Below are positions 7,901 to 32,742 of a stretch of DNA of 64,000 bases, piece by piece. Made by a program: the position numbers and the translations under genes. This DNA is from a virus: IMG/VR virus record IMGVR_UViG_3300025467_000013, positions 1-64,000 of that record. One strand, given 5' to 3'. How positions within the stretch are numbered: position 1 is the first letter of the stretch; each line of letters starts with the position of its first letter. The notes under the pieces were generated by a model that worked only from the letters and a program-made list of their open reading frames with translations, was not told the DNA's origin and ran no database searches.

Positions 7901-10900
7901 TTTTGTTATATAAAAACGCCTTCTTTATCTTCTTTACATCAACTTTATCAATTTCTTGATTAACGATAGTCCATGTAAATGAATTAATCGGTTTTTTATA
8001 TTCGTACACAATACCCGATCTAACATTAAGATCAAATCCGTATATAGAACTTAGAATAACAGTATCGTCGCCTGTTGATATACTGTATCCATATTGCGAC
8101 TCGTTATCATCTAAATTGTCTAAACTTTCAGTAAATATCCAATACGAACCATATTGATCATAAATGTCAACGCGGCCTTCACCTTTAGTAGCTAAGGAGA
8201 ATATTGTCGATTTTTCATCAAATGTTGTATTGTTTTCATCAAATATAATCGGATCATATCTTACCGAACTACGACTAAAGACCACTAATGTATCAAAATC
8301 ATTCATGAATGAAACGTAACTACCAAAATGCTGAGAAGTTTCGGGAGCTATATTAGTAATCTTTTGATATGGTACATATTGTGTATCTCCATATTCGTAT
8401 ATTTCTACTTTACCTTCATTAATTTTTAAACCGTCATATAATACAGAAGAAATTACAATGTAATCTGCTGCATAAGATACATCAACTCCCTGGCCAAATC
8501 CCAACCCGTCACCTTCTGTATCTGTAATAACTTGTGACAAATAATAACTTATACTATCGTCAGAATTATATACAAATACTCGTCCCGGATTAACAGCACC
8601 TATTATAGATACACCTGCTGAGCATATTAATAACGTCGAAACATCTTTACTCATAGCCATACGATAACCAAAATTACCGCCAATTGCAACATTATTATGA
8701 GTTATCCCTACTTTGTCTTGCCAGGTCCATTGAAGAATAACAAATTCTAATATACCGACCGGCTGACTGTCAGGTTCAACATCAGACTGAATTGTTGTAC
8801 TATCAATTATCCTTGCTACAATTTGCCCGGTTGTAAATCCAGTCCCCACTATACTCATGCCTACTGCAATTTTAGCAGTATTAGAAACTTTAATTATTGT
8901 ACCATTACTTCCAATCGGATTATAATACACACTTGCATAAATCACCGGTTGGTATGTTAATTGATATACTACCCCTTTACCGTTATTGCCGCCTGGAGCA
9001 TTTATAAAAAATGTTCCATTACCAAAGGTTAAATTTGCACCAAATTGTTCGTTCTCAGCAGGCGATGGGCTAATAATGGTATCAACTAATGTAATGATGT
9101 TGTTATCGTTTACTTTATAAAGTGTTACTGCACCTTGCTTCATTAATGACGAATTAGTGCCGCCTGCATCGACTGGAATATATTGTGTAATATTCCAATA
9201 ATCTGCCCAAAGCGTAACTATAACACCATTTGAATTAGTGTCGTTTGTTAATGTAAGTTCGTTACCTTCAAATGTATCAGATACTGTAAATGCAGTATCA
9301 CTTAAAATTCTTGAAACATAATAAACAACATCTGCAATTAAATTGCCAATAGTCTGCTTAAAGATAATAGATTGCCCTGGGTTAGCTGGGCCTGATCCTA
9401 ATTGATTAATAACTCGATTGTTACTAATCGCAGTAACTAAACAAGTCGGAGGATAGTCTTCTGGTACATTTTGTGTTGCCTTATAAAATTCTCCCGAAAT
9501 AGGATCACGTATAATATCCTTAATATTATACGATGATAAATGTTGCCATGCTCCTTTATATCGAGTGCATACATGAGATGCTTGAGGAATACCAACCGCT
9601 ACCCAATTATCTGCTGCTATAATCTCTTGACTCGAAATTGCTAATATATCACCAATATAATGATTAGTAAAATTAGGGTCGGTATAAGTTGATATAAATT
9701 CAGGCGGTACTGTTTGACGAACGAGCCACGATGAATTTAAACTTGCTTTGTCACGGACATAAAGTGTCCCGCTGTTGTCAGTTGTAACCAAAAAATCTGT
9801 TGAATTTGTGGTTGCAATGCTAAGACCGTATTGTGAAAAAGCATGAGGAGAAGTATTAATTATTATTGATTGATTATATACTTTATTGTATTCCCAGGTT
9901 GCCCATTGGCCGTTTCCATTACCATTTTCATCTGTCCACATTAATTCATTAGGTAATAAATTGAGAGAAGTAATCGGCTCTGCAGAATCGATCGAGCTTG
10001 TCCGTTGACTAGTTAAGGTAAACACAACTACATTTGTTTGATCAGTGAACGTAACTGATGCAGGGGTAGACGATGACACTACATTAAACGCATTTAAATT
10101 AACCGATACTACTTTATAAAATCCTGCAAGACTACTATCAACTTGTTCTAAGGCAATTACTGATCCAACTTGTACCGTAACAAGTGCATCTGTAGTAATT
10201 TCGAGTTCTTGCACACCGTTAACAATTACTCCAACAATATCTAATACATTCATATAGGCGCTTGAATACCGATAGACATTCCAATCTTGTTTATCAAACC
10301 CACACCAAATATAATCTCCCATATTAATCAGAGACCATGCAGTTGATGTATCACTCGGTGCAACATTGATATTATCTATCTTTGCAATATAAATTTTATA
10401 TTTTCCGGTATGGTCGGCGGCGTAAGTCACAATATTAGTTGCATAGTATTGAACGCCGCTGTCCCAAACTGTGTTAGTTAATAATGCATCAAGTGTGCCT
10501 ATTGCAACTTTAACATCAGTTAATCTTGCGTACCCTGCAGATCTTAAGTAAGGATTAAAATTTGCTAATACTGGCCACGGTGACGATGTATATCCTAAAG
10601 GCTTTAAATATACATCATTCGGAGTTTGTACTATTGTTAAATTATCAAGCGATGGTGACACAATACCATATGTTAGTGAGAATGCCGCACCTGATCCTAA
10701 ATTGCCGGAAGTATCTGTAATTGTCCCCACTGACGAAAACGATCCAGAATTTACAATTCGATTAATTGCAATAATTTTTCCTGTACTATCTGTTCTAACA
10801 TTAAAGACGCAGGTACCAGTCGACGTTGTTACCGTTAAATTAAACTTTTCGTTACTTTCATATCCCGATCCGCCATTTGTTATTTTTACATCTGTTACTG

Positions 10901-26708: not shown

Positions 26709-26944
26709 AATTTAAAATCGACGAATTAGAAGAATTATATAACAAATACTTATTTGCAACAGCCGATGTTCCAACTATGAATGCTATTATGATGGAACTT
26801 AGACAACTTGAAGAAAAGTATAACTATAGGTTTACTATCACTGCGGTTCCTAAAGAACACGACAGCGAACTATCATTTCAACTGTCATTCAAAACACCTG
26901 CAGATAGAAATTGGTTTGCATTAAAGTGGGGTGTAAGTGAGTAA
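26705..26944 (+). CDS. Small hypothetical protein (WFALKW C-terminal motif)
   Basis: Likely start is the ATG at 26705 overlapping the upstream TGA (79 aa, MKFKIDELEE...), not 26672. Confidence 0.65.
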   Translation: MKFKIDELEELYNKYLFATADVPTMNAIMMELRQLEEKYNYRFTITAVPKEHDSELSFQLSFKTPADRNWFALKWGVSE

Positions 26945-27950
26945 CTTATTCAAAAAAGTAGCCTGTTTTACCGATATTCATTTTGGATTAAAGTCAAACA
27001 GCGCGGTACATAATCAAGATTGTGAAGATTTTGTTGATTGGTATATTAAAAAAGCAAAAGAGGAAGATTGTGATACAGGAATCTTTCTCGGTGACTGGCA
27101 TCATAATCGTAATAGTTTGAATATTACAACAATGACTTCTAGTCTACGTGCTTTAGAAAAGTTAGGTCAAGCATTTGATCAATTTTTCTTTTTTCCAGGT
27201 AATCACGATTTATACTATAAGGATAAGAGAGATATCCACAGCGTAGAGTTCGGCAAACATGTACCGGGAATTACAATTGTAGATAAACCTACTACCATTG
27301 GCGATGTAACCCTTTGTCCGTGGTTAGTAGGTGACGAATGGAAATCTATAGGCAAAAAGCCTAGCAAATACTTGTTTGGGCATTTTGAATTACCACACTT
27401 CTTTATGAACGCTATGGTACAAATGCCCGATCATGGAGAAATGCAACCGGATCAGTTAACTAGATATGAAAAAGTTTTTAGCGGCCACTTTCACAAAAGA
27501 CAAAATAATAATAATATTCACTATATTGGCAATGCTTTCCCACATAATTATTCAGATACTTGGGATGATGCCCGGGGAATGATGGTAATGGAATGGGGCA
27601 GTGAACCAGAATTCTTTACTTGGGATAATCAACCCACGTTTAGAACTGTTAAACTAAGCCAACTAATCGACGATGCGGATAATTTACTCAAGGCTAAGCA
27701 ACATTTAAGAGTCAATCTTGATATCGATATTAGTTTCGAAGAAGCAAGTTTTATTAAAGAAAATTTTATTACCAATTATAATTTAAGAGAATTAACTTTG
27801 ATCACAGAACGGCGAGCAGTTGAATTAACTGAAGAATTTGATGTACAATCATTCGAATCAGTGGATCAAATTGTTACCAATCAGCTTGTAAGTATTCAAT
27901 CTGACAAGTATAATACTAACACACTACTAGATATCTATAATAATTTATGA
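26937..27950 (+). CDS. gp47: Recombination endonuclease subunit, Mre11/SbcD-like
   Basis: Phosphoesterase motifs DIH, GD..H, GNHD, GHF and SGHFH. Confidence 0.93.
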   Translation: MSNLFKKVACFTDIHFGLKSNSAVHNQDCEDFVDWYIKKAKEEDCDTGIFLGDWHHNRNSLNITTMTSSLRALEKLGQAFDQFFFFPGNHDLYYKDKRDIHSVEFGKHVPGITIVDKPTTIGDVTLCPWLVGDEWKSIGKKPSKYLFGHFELPHFFMNAMVQMPDHGEMQPDQLTRYEKVFSGHFHKRQNNNNIHYIGNAFPHNYSDTWDDARGMMVMEWGSEPEFFTWDNQPTFRTVKLSQLIDDADNLLKAKQHLRVNLDIDISFEEASFIKENFITNYNLRELTLITERRAVELTEEFDVQSFESVDQIVTNQLVSIQSDKYNTNTLLDIYNNL

Positions 27951-29725
27951 CTCTCCTTAAGACATTAACTGTTAAAAACTTTATGAGCGTGGGTAATCAA
28001 ACCCAAGCAGTACGACTTGACTCTGAACATCTTACACTTGTATTAGGTGAAAACTTAGATATGGGTGGCGATGATTCGGGGTCTCGTAACGGTACAGGTA
28101 AAACTACAATTCTTAACGCTTTGAGTTACGCATTATACGGTACTGCTCTAACAAACATTAAAAAAGATAACTTGATTAACAAAATTAACAATAAAAATAT
28201 GTTAGTTACGTTAACTTTTGAAAAAGATGGTAACAAATATCGAATCGAACGCGGCAGAAAACCCAATATTCTTAAGTTCTATGTCAATGATGAAGAACAA
28301 TCTAGTAACGACAATGACGAAGCACAAGGCGATAGCAGGGAAACACAAAAAGATTTTCATATCTTATTCGGTATGAAGCATCTAATGTTTAAGCATATCG
28401 TAGGGCTTAACACATACACCGAACCGTTCTTATCGATGCGGGCAAACGATCAAAGAGAAATTATTGAAGAACTGCTCGGGATCACATTGCTTTCTGAAAA
28501 GGCTGAAGCACTTAAACTTCTAACCAAAGAAGTTAAAGACGAGATCATGCGAGAAACTGCTAACATTGAAGCAATTAAAAAGGCAAATGAAAAGATCGAC
28601 CTTAGTATTAGTAGTTTGAAAACTAAACAGTCTGCATGGAATAATCAAAACCAAGATGCAATTAATAAGATCGCACTCGCTATTGCCGACCTACAAGATG
28701 TAGATATCGAAAAAGAACTTGAATTACATGCAAAACAATCAACATATGACGATGTAAAAAAGCAAATTACCAGTCTTAATAAAGAAAAAGCCACCCTTGA
28801 ATCGGCATTAGTACAAGCACAACGTAGTGTTGATCGTTATACAAAGGAATTAGAAACACTTAGTAATCACAAATGCCACGCATGTGAACAAGACTTGCAA
28901 GATCATAAGCAAGTTGAATTATTTTCTATTGCAAATAAGAATTTACTTGAATCATTTAATTATCTTGACGAAGTAAGCGCACAATATGCAACTATTAAGA
29001 CAGAACTTGATAAAATTGGCGAGATTGGCATGCGACCCGAGACATATTACGATACTTTAGAGCAAGCTATGTCGCATCAAAATAATTTATCGGTATTAGA
29101 GAACCAATTAGAAACAAAACTTAACGAAACTGATCCGTATCAAGAACAAATTGATGAGTTAACTAATACTGCATTGCAAGATGTTTCGTGGACCGAGGTT
29201 AATACCTTAACGGAAATGAAAGATCACCAAGAATTTTTGTTAAAGCTATTAACTAACAAAGATTCGTTTATCCGTAAGAAGATTATTGATCAAAATCTTG
29301 CGTATTTGAATAATCGATTAAGTTATTATCTAGATAGAATGGGATTACCACACCTTGTTGTATTTCAAAACGACTTAACTGTCGAAATTACCCAGTTAGG
29401 ACAAGATTTAGACTTTGATAACTTGTCTAGAGGAGAAAGAAATCGACTTATCCTTGGATTATCATGGGCGTTTCGCGATGTATGGGAAAGTTTGTACCAA
29501 GGTATTAATTTAATGTTCGTAGACGAGCTTATTGACAATGGATTAGATGCAATTGGCGTTGAAAATGCGTTATCTGTACTCAAGCAAATGGGCAGAGAAC
29601 GTAACAAGAACATATTTTTGATTAGTCATAAGGATGAACTAGTCGGAAGAGTTAATAACGTATTAAAGGTTATTAAAGAAAATGGGTTTACTTCGTACAG
29701 TAACGATATTGATGTAATAGAATGA
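27947..29725 (+). CDS. gp46: Recombination ATPase subunit, Rad50/SbcC-like
   Basis: KNFMSVGN, Walker A NGTGKT, zinc hook CHAC, signature LSRGE, Walker B FVDE, ISH. Confidence 0.95.
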   Translation: MTLLKTLTVKNFMSVGNQTQAVRLDSEHLTLVLGENLDMGGDDSGSRNGTGKTTILNALSYALYGTALTNIKKDNLINKINNKNMLVTLTFEKDGNKYRIERGRKPNILKFYVNDEEQSSNDNDEAQGDSRETQKDFHILFGMKHLMFKHIVGLNTYTEPFLSMRANDQREIIEELLGITLLSEKAEALKLLTKEVKDEIMRETANIEAIKKANEKIDLSISSLKTKQSAWNNQNQDAINKIALAIADLQDVDIEKELELHAKQSTYDDVKKQITSLNKEKATLESALVQAQRSVDRYTKELETLSNHKCHACEQDLQDHKQVELFSIANKNLLESFNYLDEVSAQYATIKTELDKIGEIGMRPETYYDTLEQAMSHQNNLSVLENQLETKLNETDPYQEQIDELTNTALQDVSWTEVNTLTEMKDHQEFLLKLLTNKDSFIRKKIIDQNLAYLNNRLSYYLDRMGLPHLVVFQNDLTVEITQLGQDLDFDNLSRGERNRLILGLSWAFRDVWESLYQGINLMFVDELIDNGLDAIGVENALSVLKQMGRERNKNIFLISHKDELVGRVNNVLKVIKENGFTSYSNDIDVIE

Positions 29726-29976
29726 AATTAAGCGACGACGATGTTCATGATGAGCTAATGGATGCTATTAGAGCTTACTATAAAGCGCATCATGAGTGGG
29801 TTAATAAAGGCACAAGACAGGCAGGAAAGCGAACTAGATGGTGGCTTTCCGAAATTAGGCGTATAGCAAAGGCACAACGTAAGGTCATCATGGATTGGCG
29901 TTACGATATAGACGAGAAAAAGCGAATTAAAAAGGCTCAAAAACAACAGGCACAGGGAAAGAACGATGATAATTAG
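29722..29976 (+). CDS. Small basic protein resembling histone H1-like Hc1 N-terminal domain
   Basis: KGTRQAGKRTR..LSEI...AK..RK pattern resembles the KGNKAAG.RAR motif of Hc1-like proteins; lysine-rich tail. Confidence 0.55.
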   Translation: MKLSDDDVHDELMDAIRAYYKAHHEWVNKGTRQAGKRTRWWLSEIRRIAKAQRKVIMDWRYDIDEKKRIKKAQKQQAQGKNDDN

Positions 29977-29979
29977 TTC

Positions 29980-30405
29980 GTGTCATGGTATTATAAGAAA
30001 AAACTTGTCAAAGAACTACCGCAAGATTGCGTAGGCTTTGTCTATCTCATCACGAATAATATCACTGGTCGGAAGTATATCGGAAAAAAATTAGCGCAAT
30101 TCTCTAAAACAACTTATAAAACAGTGACACTTAAAAACGGCACAAAAAAGAAAAAGAGAATTAAAACTAAGATAGAATCCGACTGGAGAGATTATTACGG
30201 TTCAAATGACCAACTAAACAAAGACGTTCAACAGTTAGGCGCAGACAAATTCACAAGAGAAATACTTTTTTATTGCAAATCTAAGGCAGAATGTAGTTAT
30301 GTAGAGGCTCGAGAACAATTTAGTAGACGAGTACTGGAATCAAACGACTATTATAATGGTCATATCCAGGTTCGGGTCCACGGTTCTCATATTTTAAAAT
30401 CATAA
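29980..30405 (+). CDS. GIY-YIG endonuclease (endonuclease II/Seg-like, catalytic domain only)
   Basis: GFVYLIT...RKYIGKK, ESDW..YYGS, F.REIL, conserved E and YYN. 141 aa with no extra DNA-binding domain. Confidence 0.85.
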   Translation: MSWYYKKKLVKELPQDCVGFVYLITNNITGRKYIGKKLAQFSKTTYKTVTLKNGTKKKKRIKTKIESDWRDYYGSNDQLNKDVQQLGADKFTREILFYCKSKAECSYVEAREQFSRRVLESNDYYNGHIQVRVHGSHILKS

Positions 30406-30427
30406 CAGGCATTAACTCTACCAATTA

Positions 30428-30865
30428 AGCTCGCACTGGCGTCAATAAAGTGCCCTTTAAGTTGGACCTCGGGTCTCAATGACGGAATTCCTTGTTTGGT
30501 AGCGGGGTTATAAGTCAGTATCCTTAACAGGACCACGATCGGATGCGCCTTTAACCGGTTTGACTTATAAGAAAAAGTTTTACACAGGCTAAAAGAGAGG
30601 CTAGCAGCCTCACGACTGCACTGATGTTAGTGTATTTTTGCAGTCCGCCGTCATTATGAAAACAGAATGAGTAGGTACCGGATGACCGCCTACGGAATGT
30701 ATTATAAAGATGACAAAAATTAAATTTATTGTTATTTTTATAGTGCATTGTAGTTCTAACACTAAGTGATATTGTTCAACTCGGATAATGTCTTGTAGTT
30801 TCGCTCGGCAACGGGCGAAATGTGATTGAACAATCTGGATAATATCTAAAAGTGCTTCGCACAAT
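30428..30865 (+). ncRNA. Candidate large structured non-coding RNA (family unassigned; boundaries approximate)
   Basis: Many nested stems, including 30478-85/30648-55, 30508-17/30561-70, 30614-20/30639-45, 30696-716/30729-49, 30771-79/30826-34 and a GCAA-tetraloop hairpin at 30799-820. Non-Watson-Crick positions in the long stems are G-U on the + strand. About 45% GC by hand count over 30421-30660. Confidence 0.7.
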
Positions 30866-30930
30866 CATTATAAAAATAATAGTTCGAGCGATAGCGAAGA
30901 ACAGATGAACGTAGTTCATCTTAACACTGT

Positions 30931-30938
30931 TATAAATA
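30931..30938 (+). promoter_or_regulatory. T4-type late promoter (TATAAATA)
   Basis: Exact T4 late consensus 20 nt upstream of the ATG at 30959. Confidence 0.8.
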
Positions 30939-30958
30939 ATTAATGTTAGGAAATACGT

Positions 30959-31687
30959 ATGCATCTTAGAGAAATAACAAACATTAATGCCCCGAATAAA
31001 GATCTCGAAGAAGGAATATTCTCGTTATTTGGCTTCATGAGAGGAATAATAATGACTCTTGGTGTAGGACAACCATTATACGATGCATATAAAAATATTC
31101 AATCTGCAAAACAACAATACCCCGAAGGTAATGAGCAGAATAGAATAATCGATCATGAACTAACTGCATGTGCTTTAAAGATCGCAGGCATCTTAGCAGC
31201 AAGTAAATTGTTTGCGTCGATAGCTGATTTCGTAAAAATATCAAAATTATTTCCTAGACGATCGGTTATTGCAGGATTCATTGACTTTGTGTTGTCACTT
31301 CCGATCGGCGCAGCACAAACAACTGCATTAGGATTGCTTTATAGGTTATTAAACACCCAATCAGGACAAACTTTCCTTGGACAATACATTACAGGGTTAG
31401 CGTTGAGCAGCCAAATTCCTGAAAATACACCGATGTACGAGAAGTTTATCGGTGGATCAATACGACAAGCAGCTGAGTTTATTAATAAATCACTTAAAAA
31501 CTCCACTGGAGTTGATTTAGGTGCATCATCTGGTATAAGCAAATCCGAACCTCAAGGAGGACAACCAGCTCCAGAACCCGAAGTTACTCCGAAGCCAAGA
31601 GTCGCTAATCCAAATGAACCAGTACCGACTACGACCGGTAATGTGTTTACACGGGATCCTGCAACTGGTGAATTGATGTTTAAGTAA
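30959..31687 (+). CDS. Late hypothetical protein, possible internal head/ejected protein
   Basis: 242 aa with a late promoter and AGGA RBS. N-terminus MHLREI...LEE/G, hydrophobic helices, Pro-rich tail. Confidence 0.55.
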   Translation: MHLREITNINAPNKDLEEGIFSLFGFMRGIIMTLGVGQPLYDAYKNIQSAKQQYPEGNEQNRIIDHELTACALKIAGILAASKLFASIADFVKISKLFPRRSVIAGFIDFVLSLPIGAAQTTALGLLYRLLNTQSGQTFLGQYITGLALSSQIPENTPMYEKFIGGSIRQAAEFINKSLKNSTGVDLGASSGISKSEPQGGQPAPEPEVTPKPRVANPNEPVPTTTGNVFTRDPATGELMFK

Positions 31688-31693
31688 TGTTGA

Positions 31694-31930
31694 TTACAGT
31701 AATGGTAGTTGACTTTTAACAGTTGTATCAATATTTTCCTTAACAACTTCGTACATTGCTTCGCGATCATCGGGGCCATATACATGAAGAAGCTCGTAAA
31801 AAGTAACACCGCCTCTCATATACCAGCTTAATCTAGCTAATTCTTCTTTGAATTCTTTTAATTCTGTATCTAACCTAACTAGATAGCCGTTAATTTCCGA
31901 CGATGCTAATCTAATTAGGTGCGAACGAAA
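31694..31930 (-). CDS. gp51-like C-terminal extension, probably reached by -1 frameshift from gp26-like (not in ORF track)
   Basis: 78 open codons in the -1 frame from the TTTTTTC slippery site (FRSHLIRL...LARLSWYMRGGVT...LPLL*). First ATG only at codon 38, without a clear RBS. Confidence 0.7.
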   Translation of the reverse strand, partial: FRSHLIRLASSEINGYLVRLDTELKEFKEELARLSWYMRGGVTFYELLHVYGPDDREAMYEVVKENIDTTVKSQLPLL

Positions 31931-32742
31931 AAATTCGATTGGTCCATTTCGATAATAATAGTATTTGTTGATTCACATTCTACGCATACTACGGATTTTT
32001 GAGGTGCGCTCCATAAAGATTGATTACTTTGCAAATGAGTTTTAAGTGTAAGTATTGTTTCGGAGTCGATATTTTCTAACCATTCTTTAATATAAGCCTG
32101 TTCTACTACGGTAGTTGTACTAGTCTTAACAGATTCGATTGAAAAAGCGTAGATTTCGTTTTGTAAATCTGATAATTCTGAGAAAATTCTAGTTAATTCT
32201 TTACCTCTTTCGACTTCGTCGGCGATATCAGGTACTTGTTTTAACTGTTGTTGTATTTGAAAGTTAGAAACTGAAATATTTGTTGACTGTCTATAGTTTA
32301 ACGGGCGGGTATTAATAACTAAATCTTTTATAATTAATCGATTATTATATGATTTTGCCTTATAATCGTCGATTAATGATGGTAACTCGATGTCATATTC
32401 ATTTTCTGCTTTGCATGAAGGACATACATGTGATACTGGGTAAGTAGTACCAAACGATGCAATCTTAATAGCAATTAGTAAAGTATTAAGATCTAACATG
32501 TTCACATCCCAAGCATCCTTAATTGTTGGGCAGCAACTCTCGATAACTTTCACTACCGACTCGCCTATTAACAATGCATCGGGCGTCTTTAGTAGCATTT
32601 CATCCATTCCGGTCATGCTATACACTGGCATATTTTCGATAGCTCCGTGAATAGTATCTTTATTGTAATAAAGACCATGTGAAGGCAAATCAATAAAAAT
32701 TTTTGGCTGTCTAAAATACTGTTGTAATGGATTTTGGCTCAT
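31915..32742 (-). CDS. gp26: Baseplate hub assembly/tail chaperone (gp26-like)
   Basis: LPS.G.YY, MT..DE, D...LLIAI.IAS.G, two CxxC motifs (CPSC, CVEC), C-terminal NFF. Confidence 0.75.
   Translation of the reverse strand: MSQNPLQQYFRQPKIFIDLPSHGLYYNKDTIHGAIENMPVYSMTGMDEMLLKTPDALLIGESVVKVIESCCPTIKDAWDVNMLDLNTLLIAIKIASFGTTYPVSHVCPSCKAENEYDIELPSLIDDYKAKSYNNRLIIKDLVINTRPLNYRQSTNISVSNFQIQQQLKQVPDIADEVERGKELTRIFSELSDLQNEIYAFSIESVKTSTTTVVEQAYIKEWLENIDSETILTLKTHLQSNQSLWSAPQKSVVCVECESTNTIIIEMDQSNFFVRT

What the first reader, a model, noticed from the sequence alone, without database searches (positions are those of the whole stretch)
29980..30925. Minimal GIY-YIG nuclease followed directly by a ~450-500-nt ornate structured RNA: candidate RNA-protein system
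Seen: in a genome with mostly short, AT-rich intergenic gaps, the 553 nt after the GIY-YIG stop are non-coding, GC-enriched at the 5' end (109/240 by hand count) and folded into nested stems. These include GCACT/AGTGC (30433-37/30449-53); AATGACGG/CCGTCATT (30478-85/30648-55) enclosing TTATAAGTCA/TGACTTATAA (30508-17/30561-70), TCCT-TAAC-AGGA, GAGGCT/AGCCTC and GACTGCA/TGCAGTC; GTAGG/CCTAC (30671-75/30689-93); a 21-bp stem (30696-716/30729-49) whose four non-Watson-Crick pairs are all G-U; and a GCAA-tetraloop hairpin with a U-G pair. G-U tolerance and the GNRA loop favour a + strand RNA, co-transcribed with the nuclease. Known: Seg-type GIY-YIG homing enzymes usually carry extra DNA-binding domains, and nucleases paired with large adjacent RNAs (IscB/omega-RNA) are RNA-guided. 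Inference: this may be an RNA-associated or RNA-guided GIY-YIG nuclease, a replication-primer RNA (R-loop origin), or a large phage ncRNA of the GOLLD/ROOL kind. I cannot assign it to a family from sequence.
Basis: partly seen in the sequence, partly recalled or inferred. Interest (0 to 1): 0.9.

Follow-up and report, generated by a model that had tools for sequence, protein, structure and literature searches.

The report
Large twin-box phage RNA beside nuclease
The gene-free stretch behind a small DNA-cutting-enzyme gene of this uncultured freshwater T4-like giant phage encodes a real, knotted non-coding RNA of about 500 bases. Its first 143 bases are the catalogued orphan motif Polynucleobacter-1, its job is unknown, and nothing tested here supports the idea that it guides the nuclease.

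Summary
Window 30428-30925 (+) is a conserved structured RNA: fold z -4.5, and 69 of 87 tested base pairs show compensatory changes across 52 relatives.

It is not unassignable. Bases 30428-30570 are a full-length Rfam RF01718 (Polynucleobacter-1) match at 85 bits against a cut-off of 37. The uncatalogued remainder adds two pseudoknots, a conserved GNRA hairpin module and two identical 7-nt "twin boxes" (GGATAAT at 30783 and 30837).

In 155 of 155 complete relatives the two boxes are identical, although the word changes at least about 50 times on the tree. No complementary partner was found in the RNA, the window or a complete 347-kb relative.

The 141-aa GIY-YIG protein is a fixed gene of the gp47-gp46 recombination operon and is more conserved than gp46, so it is not a roving homing enzyme. 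Some relatives carry a PDDEXK nuclease in its place with the RNA kept, and E. coli phage 121Q carries Endo VII there. The GIY-YIG family occurs without the RNA in 335 cultured phage records. The RNA occurs in three Burkholderiales genomes, with no nuclease next to it in the two whose neighbours were scanned.

The RNA-guided-nuclease reading is therefore not supported. The function remains unknown. This scan has reported the same RNA family many times on other DNA.

The parts
29722..29976 (+). orf84: a small basic protein (weak Hc1-like hit) that lies between gp46 and the nuclease in most relatives
   Evidence: It carries a conserved motif (H..F..Y...W...AG..R..L.EIR..RR) and does not covary with the twin boxes.
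29980..30405 (+). A 141-aa nuclease consisting of the GIY-YIG catalytic domain only (SegE_GIY-YIG). It is a fixed member of the gp47-gp46 operon.
   Evidence: Pfam PF19835 at 114.9 bits. AlphaFold model pLDDT 85, with VIA Z 8.4 to the I-TevI catalytic domain. It is 70-82% identical across 80 syntenic loci, against 48-86% (mostly 53-74%) for gp46.
30428..30925 (+). Full-length structured ncRNA (extended Polynucleobacter-1 / 'twin-box' RNA). It is 498 nt here and about 420-480 nt in most relatives.
   Evidence: Conserved end to end in more than 50 loci. 87 pairs are 88.5% paired against 73.3% in shuffles; covariation score 0.414 against 0.17 shuffled and 0.06-0.08 slid.
30428..30570 (+). 5' domain, equal to Rfam RF01718 Polynucleobacter-1. 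Helices: P1 30433-37/30449-53, P2 30462-68/30472-79, P4 30511-17/30561-67 enclosing 30521-24/30529-32 and 30537-42/30555-60.
   Evidence: 85.3 bits against a gathering score of 37, model positions 1-141 of 141. Helices 1 and 4-6.
30597..30645 (+). Hairpins P5 (30597-602/30606-11) and P6 (30614-20/30639-45). The P6 loop supplies one strand of pseudoknot PK2.
   Evidence: helices 7 and 8: all pairs show changes on both sides.
30627..30765 (+). Pseudoknot PK2: the P6 loop (30627-33) pairs with 30759-65
   Evidence: helix 9: 7 of 7 pairs with changes on both sides, 92.7% paired.
30650..30693 (+). Core pseudoknot: P7 (30650-54/30682-86) crosses P8 (30671-75/30689-93). It holds the nearly invariant GGTACCGG...ACCGCC.
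   Evidence: helices 10 and 12. Invariant columns are listed.
30664..30757 (+). P9 (30664-68/30753-57), which closes the core and the variable insertion site
   Evidence: helix 11: 5 of 5 pairs with changes on both sides.
30696..30749 (+). It is not part of the conserved RNA.
   Evidence: Gap in about 50 of 52 relatives. Shared with L002; L010 has an unrelated insert at the same site.
30783..30789 (+). Twin box 1 (GGATAAT), with 5' flank ACTC
30799..30820 (+). P11 hairpin between the two boxes (GCAA loop in this phage)
   Evidence: helix 13.
30837..30843 (+). Twin box 2 (GGATAAT), with 5' flank ATCT
   Evidence: Identical to box 1 in 155 of 155 complete RNAs, with at least 12 different words in phages.
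30852..30862 (+). P12, a GC-UUC-GC triloop hairpin
   Evidence: helix 14.
30882..30902 (+). P13 module: GTTC/GAAC stem, GA/GAA internal loop, and a GC-GATA-GC hairpin with a GNRA loop. The GAGC...GCGAA motif is nearly invariant.
   Evidence: near-invariant columns; helices 15-17.
30903..30921 (+). P14, the 3'-terminal 8-bp hairpin and probable 3' end. No U tract follows it.
   Evidence: helix 18: 7 of 8 pairs with changes on both sides. It is not called a terminator.
30931..30938 (+). TATAAATA, the T4-type late-promoter consensus, 20 nt upstream of the ribosome-binding site of the next gene (ATG at 30959)
   Evidence: Read directly. The consensus is from established T4 biology. It argues that the RNA is not the late 5' leader of orf242.

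Best explanation
The gap holds an independent gene for a large, tertiary-structured, + strand non-coding RNA. It belongs to an extended Polynucleobacter-1 ('twin-box') family found in uncultured aquatic T4-like giant phages and in a few Burkholderiales chromosomes.

In this phage the RNA probably rides on, or is processed from, the early/middle gp47-gp46-orf84-GIY-YIG transcript, and ends at hairpin P14 just before the late promoter of the next gene. That transcription scheme is inferred.

The likely working part is the 3' module. Two helices present the same single-stranded 7-nt word twice, behind constant ACUC and AUCU flanks. Both copies always change together and nothing inside the RNA pairs with them. 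The most likely mechanism is therefore that the RNA reads an outside, fast-evolving partner twice, either by base pairing with two copies of one sequence or through a two-fold symmetric binder. That mechanism is also inferred.

The GIY-YIG protein is a separate component: the structure-specific or recombination nuclease slot of the Mre11/Rad50-like (gp47/gp46) operon. Relatives fill the same slot with a PDDEXK nuclease or with Endo VII. It is a long-standing neighbour of the RNA, not its guided effector.
For: The RNA is real and lies on the + strand. Family membership: RF01718 at 85.3 bits over the full model, and the same match directly behind the GIY-YIG gene in 29 of 40 relatives checked.

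Whole-gap conservation and both pseudoknots are shown.

Twin boxes: the two copies are identical in 155 of 155 RNAs. Mutual information between the two copies is 0.41-0.90 against at most 0.42 for any other column. The word changes at least 52 times on a FastTree tree.

Independence from the nuclease:
- L247, with gp46 71% identical to the window's, and L238, L275 and L316 keep the RNA behind a PF24608 PDDEXK nuclease instead of GIY-YIG.
- E. coli phage 121Q has Endo VII at the same syntenic place.
- GIY-YIG homologues sit in other contexts in 335 cultured phage records. Melnitz, phiM12 and P-HM1 have no RF01718 match, and Melnitz has no match to the twin-box model either.
- Bacterial copies in G058, G011 and G100 carry twin boxes and are transcribed divergently from a DUF6641 gene, so they are their own units. 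No nuclease lies next to the RNA in G058 or G011, whose neighbours were scanned.

The nuclease is a core gene: it has fixed synteny and 70-82% identity, higher than gp46 in nearly every locus.
Against: No transcript evidence could be obtained, so the ends, abundance and even expression are inferred. Within this phage clade the linkage is very tight: 69 of 71 GIY-YIG loci carry the RNA, and 71 of 80 RNA loci have GIY-YIG upstream. This leaves room for a functional tie. All the enzymes seen in the slot beside the RNA in phages are small, catalytic-domain-only DNA nucleases, and one bacterial locus has a small tyrosine recombinase two genes downstream, which is what an RNA-specified system would look like. 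No partner for the boxes was found, so 'reads an outside partner' is an argument by exclusion.
Confidence: 0.7

Rival explanations
1. RNA-specified nuclease or recombinase system. The RNA is a cofactor that supplies target recognition to minimal DNA enzymes lacking DNA-binding domains, with the twin boxes acting as a bivalent guide.
For: In phages nearly every RNA copy is preceded by a catalytic-domain-only nuclease, either GIY-YIG or PDDEXK. 69 of 71 GIY-YIG loci of this clade have the RNA. One bacterial copy has a 212-aa tyrosine recombinase two genes downstream. The boxes are variable, exposed and 7 nt long, the size of a recombination crossover region.
Against: Non-homologous enzymes replace one another beside an unchanged RNA. 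The GIY-YIG family is widespread without the RNA. The G011 copy sits among housekeeping genes with no nuclease within 3 kb. In 7 loci another ORF separates GIY-YIG from the RNA. Seven nucleotides is far below known guide lengths. The box word and its complement are neither avoided nor enriched in the window or in a complete 347-kb relative, and no inverted or direct second site exists there.
Confidence: 0.07
2. Replication-origin transcript. The RNA primes or opens an origin (an R-loop, as at T4 oriF/oriG or ColE1 RNA II) next to the recombination-replication genes.
Against: The cumulative GC skew of the complete relative G001 shows no turn at the RNA. An elaborate pseudoknotted fold with compensatory changes is not needed for an R-loop. 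Bacterial chromosomal copies sit beside non-replication genes. The identity of the twin boxes is not explained.
Confidence: 0.08
3. Cis-acting part of an mRNA: a 3' UTR stabiliser or processing element of the operon, or a leader of the downstream gene, as Weinberg et al. tentatively scored it.
For: It starts 22 nt after the GIY-YIG stop with no promoter-like site between. Table 1 of the 2010 paper scores the motif as possibly cis-regulatory.
Against: The downstream gene differs between relatives and has its own late promoter after the RNA. In bacteria the RNA follows no co-directional gene but is divergent from DUF6641. About 500 nt with invariant junctions and two pseudoknots is far more than a stabiliser needs.
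Confidence: 0.08
4. DNA-level element. The twin boxes are direct-repeat binding or crossover sites (iterons or recombination sites), and the conservation reflects DNA function.
For: The boxes are direct repeats about 54 bp apart. One relative (L206) has precisely lost one unit, as recombination between the repeats would produce.
Against: Helices throughout the region show compensatory changes, and many G-U pairs are tolerated on the + strand only. The 30 kcal/mol strand asymmetry also argues against it. The flanks ACTC and ATCT stay different while the 7-mers stay identical, which argues against gene conversion.
Confidence: 0.04

Closest known systems
Polynucleobacter-1 RNA motif (Rfam RF01718; Weinberg et al. 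2010, Genome Biol 11:R31, PMC2864571)
   Same: Window 30428-30570 matches the whole 141-position model at 85.3 bits. The habitat is the same (fresh water), and so is the gene context noted in 2010 (downstream of a gene family with a cyanophage P-SSM2 homologue). The flanks of the authors' own alignment rows, including Polynucleobacter NC_009379.1, already contain the twin boxes.
   Different: The catalogued motif covers only the first 30% or so. The mid-core pseudoknot, PK2, the twin boxes and the P13/P14 module are not described. Some relatives (for example G001, L013, L047) keep the 3' two-thirds but have a different 5' domain that RF01718 does not detect. In 2010 no phage copy was known.
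GOLLD (RF01998) and ROOL (RF03087): large ornate RNAs of phages and prophages
   Same: Both are large (over 400 nt), multi-domain, pseudoknotted orphan RNAs carried by phages, of unknown function.
   Different: There is no Rfam match to either. This RNA has no tRNA neighbourhood, and nothing like the twin boxes is described for them.
IscB/omega-RNA (HEARO) and TnpB/omega-RNA RNA-guided nucleases
   Same: A large structured RNA is encoded next to a compact nuclease gene.
   Different: In those systems the protein and RNA are an obligate pair and the RNA ends in a guide of 15 nt or more. Here the neighbours are exchangeable, each occurs without the other, and the only variable parts are two internal identical 7-mers.
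Lambdoid N protein with the boxB elements of nutL/nutR (analogy only, from established knowledge)
   Same: Two copies of a short RNA element are alike within a phage yet differ between related phages, and a small arginine-rich protein is encoded nearby.
   Different: The local small basic protein orf84 does not change with the boxes: near-identical orf84 proteins accompany GG, GC and AG box variants. The boxes are single-stranded words, not hairpins.
I-TevI catalytic domain, T4 EndoII, and T4 Endo VII / Slx1 (for the protein)
   Same: GIY-YIG fold: Z 8.4 to I-TevI (1LN0), 5.4 to T4 EndoII (2WSH), 3.3 to Slx1. The size matches EndoII (134 residues in 2WSH). The genomic slot is occupied by Endo VII in phage 121Q.
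   Different: It has no DNA-binding domain or linker as in I-TevI and the Seg enzymes. It carries a long basic beta-hairpin insertion (residues 40-66). It is not sporadic or mobile. Its substrate is unknown.

Membership tests
Rfam RF01718 Polynucleobacter-1 RNA | Covariance-model score at or above the curated gathering score over the whole model | tested here: met
   85.3 bits against 37, model positions 1-141 of 141, E 1e-16.
Rfam RF01718 Polynucleobacter-1 RNA | Consensus helices maintained by compensatory changes among relatives | tested here: met
   P1 5 of 5, P4 6 of 7 and P4b 4 of 6 pairs with changes on both sides (helices 1, 4, 6).
Rfam RF01718 Polynucleobacter-1 RNA | Location downstream of a GOS11034-family gene (possible homologue of P-SSM2 PSSM2_218), as described in 2010 | tested here: inconclusive
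   The RNA follows the GIY-YIG gene, and that family has cyanophage homologues. I could not verify that GOS11034 or PSSM2_218 is this family.
Extended 'twin-box' RNA (family defined only by this scan) | Two identical single-stranded 7-nt words behind ACUC and AUCU flanks, on either side of a hairpin | tested here: met
   GGATAAT at 30783 and 30837, with P11 between them. The copies are identical in 155 of 155 relatives.
Extended 'twin-box' RNA (family defined only by this scan) | Core pseudoknot with ...ACCGCC, a long-range loop pairing (PK2), and a GAGC-GNRA-GCGAA module followed by a terminal hairpin | tested here: met
GIY-YIG nuclease superfamily (Pfam PF19835 SegE_GIY-YIG) | Profile match above the cut-off and a GIY-YIG fold | tested here: met
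   114.9 bits against 25. Z 8.4, rmsd 2.7 A over 82 residues to I-TevI 1LN0; the next-best matches are also GIY-YIG enzymes.
GIY-YIG nuclease superfamily (Pfam PF19835 SegE_GIY-YIG) | Conserved GIY and YIG motifs plus catalytic Arg/Glu/Asn | tested here: inconclusive
   G19-x-V21-Y22, Y33-I34-G35, R93, E109/E112 and N126 are invariant and E94 nearly so in 28 homologues. The residue-by-residue match to the I-TevI catalytic residues was not checked.
Seg-type free-standing homing endonucleases | Extra DNA-binding domain, and a sporadic, mobile distribution between otherwise syntenic genomes | tested here: not met
   The protein is 141 aa, catalytic domain only. It has the same position in nearly all of 80 loci and is more conserved than gp46 and gp47.
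RNA-guided nucleases (IscB/TnpB/Cas-like) | Obligate co-occurrence of the protein family with its RNA | tested here: not met
   PDDEXK replaces GIY-YIG with the RNA kept. GIY-YIG occurs without the RNA in cultured phages. The RNA occurs without an adjacent nuclease in bacteria.
RNA-guided nucleases (IscB/TnpB/Cas-like) | A terminal variable guide segment with matching targets | tested here: not met
   The only variable elements are two internal 7-mers. No matching or avoided sites were found in the window or in a complete relative.
RNA-guided nucleases (IscB/TnpB/Cas-like) | Physical RNA-protein complex with RNA-dependent cleavage | not testable with these tools
   This needs biochemistry.
GOLLD / ROOL | Match to the family covariance models | tested here: not met
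   No match even at E up to 10 on 30300-31100.
RNA-primed replication origin (T4 oriF/oriG, ColE1 type) | Replication initiates at the locus, with a persistent RNA-DNA hybrid | not testable with these tools
   The only indirect look was GC skew, which shows no turn at the RNA in G001. That is weak evidence for T4-like phages.

The most novel reading that the evidence does not exclude
The RNA is a programmable bivalent adaptor. Its two identical 7-nt words, perhaps extended through the pyrimidine flanks by G-U pairing, each pair with one copy of the same sequence. That would hold two nucleic-acid segments together for the small DNA enzyme encoded alongside (GIY-YIG, PDDEXK or Endo VII nuclease, or a tyrosine recombinase). 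This would be an RNA-specified DNA cleavage or recombination system of a new kind, shared by giant phages and bacterial islands.
Probability: 0.05. Interest if true: 0.95.

Novelty: new variant of a known kind. Interest (0 to 1): 0.58.

Why it matters
Polynucleobacter-1 has sat in Rfam since 2010 as a 141-nt orphan motif. These data show it is only the head of a 420-500-nt pseudoknotted RNA. That RNA is one of the most conserved features of a large group of uncultured aquatic T4-like giant phages and also occurs in Burkholderiales chromosomes.

Its twin boxes evolve in a way I know from no described RNA class. Two separate 7-mers are always identical, change dozens of times, and have no partner in cis. 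This points either to a specificity element for an unknown trans partner or to a mechanism that needs only self-identity.

Knowing the function would add a new kind of large functional RNA to phage biology. The negative result also matters: the tempting 'GIY-YIG plus guide RNA' reading should not be propagated.

Tried and rejected
- **Expression.** No RNA holder was listed for window 29000-32000. Only seven DNA metagenome runs (freshwater or lake water) hold it, five of them with half or more of the sampled words. Read laying was therefore not used, and nothing can be said about expression.
- **Partner inside the RNA.** No covarying complement of the boxes was found, and a mutual-information scan found no third covarying column.
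- **Partner in the genome.** No extra copies of the extended box were found in the window (9 matches at up to 2 mismatches, 6.2 expected). Box and anti-box 7-mers are neither enriched nor depleted in the window or in the complete 346,856-bp relative G001. One box/anti-box palindrome in G001 proved to be a box-independent GATAATATTATC-like operator site that is also present in G002, which has a different box. No anti-box lies within 3-4 kb of the RNA in the bacterial loci, apart from one isolated match 2.3 kb upstream in G100.
- **orf84 as the box reader (N/boxB analogy).** Rejected: near-identical orf84 proteins go with three different boxes.
- **Template-jump model.** Reverse transcription that needs only box identity has no support: no RVT_1 gene in five large relatives.
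- **Origin by GC skew.** No signal.
- **Group I intron reading.** Rejected: only 3 nt separate orf84 from the GIY-YIG start, the downstream ORF is not conserved, and there is no Rfam intron match.
- **tRNA or tmRNA.** None in the window.
- **Promoter and terminator scans.** Nothing above shuffled expectation.
- **Genome-contig scan.** The GC-rich core pattern returned only chance hits in high-GC bacteria: 0 of 120 carried the RNA.
- **Cultured phages.**
  - blastn of the region or of the core found nothing.
  - A sequence-only model of the twin-box module (R1; RNAalifold found no consensus pairs because the bacterial rows misaligned) found nothing in 121Q, GAP32, Atu_ph07 or Melnitz.
  - RF01718 found nothing in the stretches downstream of gp46 in 121Q, GAP32 and Atu_ph07, nor in the whole Melnitz record.
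It is not disproved.
- **Protein structure searches.** Foldseek against the PDB gave no significant match for the GIY-YIG model, although VIA-align did. phmmer against PDB sequences found nothing.
- **DUF6641.** It is absent from the phage loci, and 10 other bacterial DUF6641 copies have no detectable RNA.
Full report
**Context.** The window is 64 kb of a 75.6-kb viral contig that CheckV rates 21% complete. This suggests a genome of roughly 350 kb. Five freshwater DNA metagenomes hold at least half of the 3-kb stretch searched (29000-32000).

Around the finding the + strand carries:
- a gp47-like phosphoesterase (26937-27950);
- a gp46-like SMC/Rad50 ATPase (27947-29725);
- an 84-aa basic ORF (29722-29976);
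- a 141-aa SegE-type GIY-YIG ORF (29980-30405).

A 553-nt gap follows. After it come a 242-aa ORF (30959-31687) and, on the - strand, a T4-type baseplate protein. A T4 late-promoter consensus, TATAAATA, sits at 30931-30938 just before the 242-aa ORF (the consensus is established T4 knowledge).

**Observation.** The + strand of 30428-30925 folds to -147.8 kcal/mol (z -4.5). The - strand gives -117.9 kcal/mol (z -3.0).

Rfam gives one match in the whole window above a curated threshold: RF01718 Polynucleobacter-1 at 30428-30570 (+), 85.3 bits against a gathering score of 37, covering the full model. The remaining 355 nt or so match nothing in Rfam.

**Relatives.** The GIY-YIG protein has at least 577 relatives in IMG/VR. 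The best 80 (70-82% identity) have the same gene order: gp47, gp46, small basic ORF, GIY-YIG, a gap of about 450-700 nt, a variable gene, then the baseplate gene.

The GIY-YIG protein is more conserved than gp46 (48-86%, mostly 53-74%) and gp47 (56-77%). It is therefore a fixed core gene and not a roving homing endonuclease.

RF01718 lies directly after the GIY-YIG stop in 20 of 20 loci of one set. It does so in 9 of 20 loci of a second set chosen because blastn had found nothing there. That hairpin is an insertion shared only with L002; L010 has an unrelated insert at the same site.

**Structure.** I tested 87 pairs in 18 helices on a 52-sequence MAFFT alignment.

| Measure | Observed | Column shuffles | Partners slid 1-3 columns |
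|---|---|---|---|
| Cells forming a standard pair | 88.5% | 73.3% (0 of 500 as high) | 37-43% |
| Covariation score | 0.414 | 0.170 | 0.06-0.08 |

Changes on both sides occur in 69 pairs.

Beyond the Rfam domain the supported helices are:
- P5 (30597-602/30606-11);
- P6 (30614-20/30639-45);
- P9 (30664-68/30753-57);
- P8 (30671-75/30689-93);
- P11 (30799-806/30813-20);
- P12 (30852-55/30859-62, a UUC triloop);
- P13 with a conserved GA/GAA internal loop and a GNRA hairpin (30882-30902);
- P14 (30903-10/30914-21).

Two pseudoknots are supported. The P6 loop pairs with 30759-65 (7 of 7 pairs covary). P7 (30650-54/30682-86; 3 of 5 covary) crosses P8 and P9.

That outer stem shows no compensatory change and only its CGG/CCG end is kept.

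Many G-U pairs (for example columns 169/209, 171/207 and 356/378) would be A-C on the other strand. Together with the energy asymmetry, this fixes the RNA on the + strand.

**Twin boxes.** GGATAAT occurs at 30783-89 behind ACTC and again at 30837-43 behind ATCT, on either side of hairpin P11.
- In 56 of 56 aligned relatives the two 7-mers are identical while the word varies.
- With 91 further RNA loci the count is 155 of 155, with at least 12 different words. These loci were fetched independently of the protein, by the invariant core pattern.
- The commonest words are AGATAAT, GGATAAT, AGATGAT, GGATGAT and GCATAAT.
- Each variable box-1 position covaries only with the same position of box 2: MI 0.90, 0.41, 0.87 and 0.51, against at most 0.42 for any other column.
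- On a FastTree tree built without the box columns, the word changes at least 52 times. Position 1 alone changes at least 30 times.
- The flanks (CTC against TCT) stay different. Gene conversion is therefore an unlikely cause, and selection for identity is the better reading (inference).
- One relative (L206) has lost exactly one unit.

No complement of the box exists at a conserved place in the RNA. There are no further copies of the extended box in the window. The word and its complement are neither enriched nor avoided in the window or in a complete 346,856-bp relative.

**Are the RNA and the nuclease one system?** Within this clade the linkage is tight:
- 69 of 71 GIY-YIG loci with enough downstream sequence have the RNA.
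- Of 80 RNA loci not cut by a contig end, 64 have GIY-YIG directly upstream.
- 7 more have GIY-YIG with an extra ORF in between.

The pair is nevertheless separable:
- In L238, L247, L275 and L316 a PF24608 PDDEXK nuclease (with a weak Hjc resemblance in L238) sits between gp46 and an otherwise normal RNA. L247 is a close relative, with gp46 71% identical to the window's.
- In E. coli phage 121Q the same slot holds Endo VII, between gp46 and the baseplate hub. An 836-nt unannotated gap follows it.
- GIY-YIG homologues (36-54% identity) occur in 335 cultured phage records: cyanomyophages, OM43 phage Melnitz, phiM12, ACP17 and IME-SM1. They are often mis-annotated as 'NAD synthetase'.
- In the three I opened they sit in other contexts, without a gap and without RF01718.

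My reading is that this operon position is a slot for a structure-specific or recombination nuclease. That is an inference from the non-orthologous replacements.

The AlphaFold model (pLDDT 85) is a GIY-YIG core with a long basic beta-hairpin insertion. Its nearest structures are I-TevI (Z 8.4), PD-T4-3 (6.7), the UvrC N-terminal domain (5.7) and T4 EndoII (5.4).

**Bacterial copies.**
- RF01718 scores above the cut-off in 3 of 151 sampled Burkholderiales genomes, all 1.8-1.9 Mb. A fourth genome has a weak hit.
- G058, G011 and G100 carry the full architecture, with twin boxes AGCGAAA, GGCGAAA and AGCGATG. The two copies are again identical within each RNA.
- The flanks printed in the 2010 supplementary alignment, including Polynucleobacter NC_009379.1, show the same boxes.
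- In all three genomes a DUF6641 gene lies divergently just 5' of the RNA. The RNA is therefore its own transcription unit there.
- DUF6641 also occurs 10 times without a detectable RNA, and it is absent from the phages.
- G058 has a 224-aa ORF and a 212-aa tyrosine recombinase downstream, and Zorya-like ZorC/ZorD-type genes upstream.
- G011 has ordinary housekeeping neighbours.

**What it is and how it may work.**
- Shown: a real, + strand, doubly pseudoknotted RNA of about 500 nt. Its 5' domain is RF01718. It is conserved at a fixed site in well over a hundred phage contigs and is present in bacteria.
- Shown: the concerted twin boxes, and the separability of the RNA from the nuclease.
- Inferred: co-transcription with the operon, termination at P14, and a trans-acting role in which the twin boxes read an outside partner twice.

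I tested and rejected several specific partners (orf84, cis complements, genomic sites). I could not test host sequences or proteins.

The replication-primer, cis-element and DNA-site readings remain minor rivals. The RNA-guided-nuclease reading gets about 5-7%.

**Relation to earlier work of this scan.** The same family has been reported many times on other DNA. My independent tests agree with those notes on the reality of the RNA, the twin boxes and the swappable nuclease.

New here, as far as I could see:
- the DUF6641 neighbour in bacteria;
- the lack of covariation with orf84;
- the null result in a complete genome;
- the L206 one-unit deletion;
- Endo VII at the syntenic slot in 121Q.

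I could not reproduce the note that cultured E. coli, Cronobacter and Agrobacterium phages carry recognisable relatives.

Noticed in passing
L206 (IMGVR_UViG_3300008113_000659), locus about 8545-8643: This relative's RNA has lost exactly one twin-box unit together with hairpin P11. It keeps a single ATCT-AGATAAT box. This looks like recombination or slippage between the two repeats.
   Followed up: partly
L364 12873-13340 (+), L365 1466-1966 (+), L366 about 9833-10216 (+): In all three bacterial genomes with the RNA, a DUF6641 (PF20346) gene lies divergently just 5' of it. The family has no literature in the searched library. It also occurs in several other copies without the RNA.
   Followed up: partly
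L386 (Escherichia phage 121Q NC_025447.1: 326017-327344): In this cultured jumbo phage, gp46 is followed by Endo VII on the opposite strand. Then comes an 836-nt unannotated gap with an extended -10-like TGCTATAAT and a hairpin-plus-T-run, then the baseplate hub. The synteny matches the window. There was no match to RF01718 or to my twin-box model, so homology of the gap is open.
   Followed up: partly
window 29980-30405 and cultured phage records: This GIY-YIG family (PHROG 447) is annotated 'NAD synthetase' in many phage records. That appears to be a propagated mis-annotation.
   Followed up: no
window 30765-30782 and 30821-30836: Each box is preceded by a GTGA element and a short spacer. 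In this phage the spacers are complementary (TTGTTCAA/TTGAACAA), but not in all relatives. In many relatives the one or two bases just 5' of the ACTC/ATCT flanks are also identical between the two units.
   Followed up: partly
L364 13849-19738 (-): Upstream of the G058 RNA locus lie an EH_Signature protein and an SNF2-helicase/Mrr-nuclease fusion. This is the domain pair of Zorya ZorC/ZorD, so the RNA sits in a defence or mobile island that also has a small tyrosine recombinase.
   Followed up: no
window 29722-29976: orf84 belongs to a fast-evolving family of small basic proteins with a conserved AG..R..L.EIR..RR helix. The family accompanies gp46 and the nuclease in most relatives. Its function is unknown.
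   Followed up: partly
L228, L292, L214: The RNA also occurs in other phage contexts: beside a Pol III alpha fragment, an Rv2179c-like 3'-5' exoribonuclease, Tad3 and SHMT (L228); behind an amidoligase, with a T5orf172 (GIY-YIG-like) gene 1.3 kb downstream (L292); and as a partial copy with a PDDEXK_15 gene downstream (L214).
   Followed up: partly
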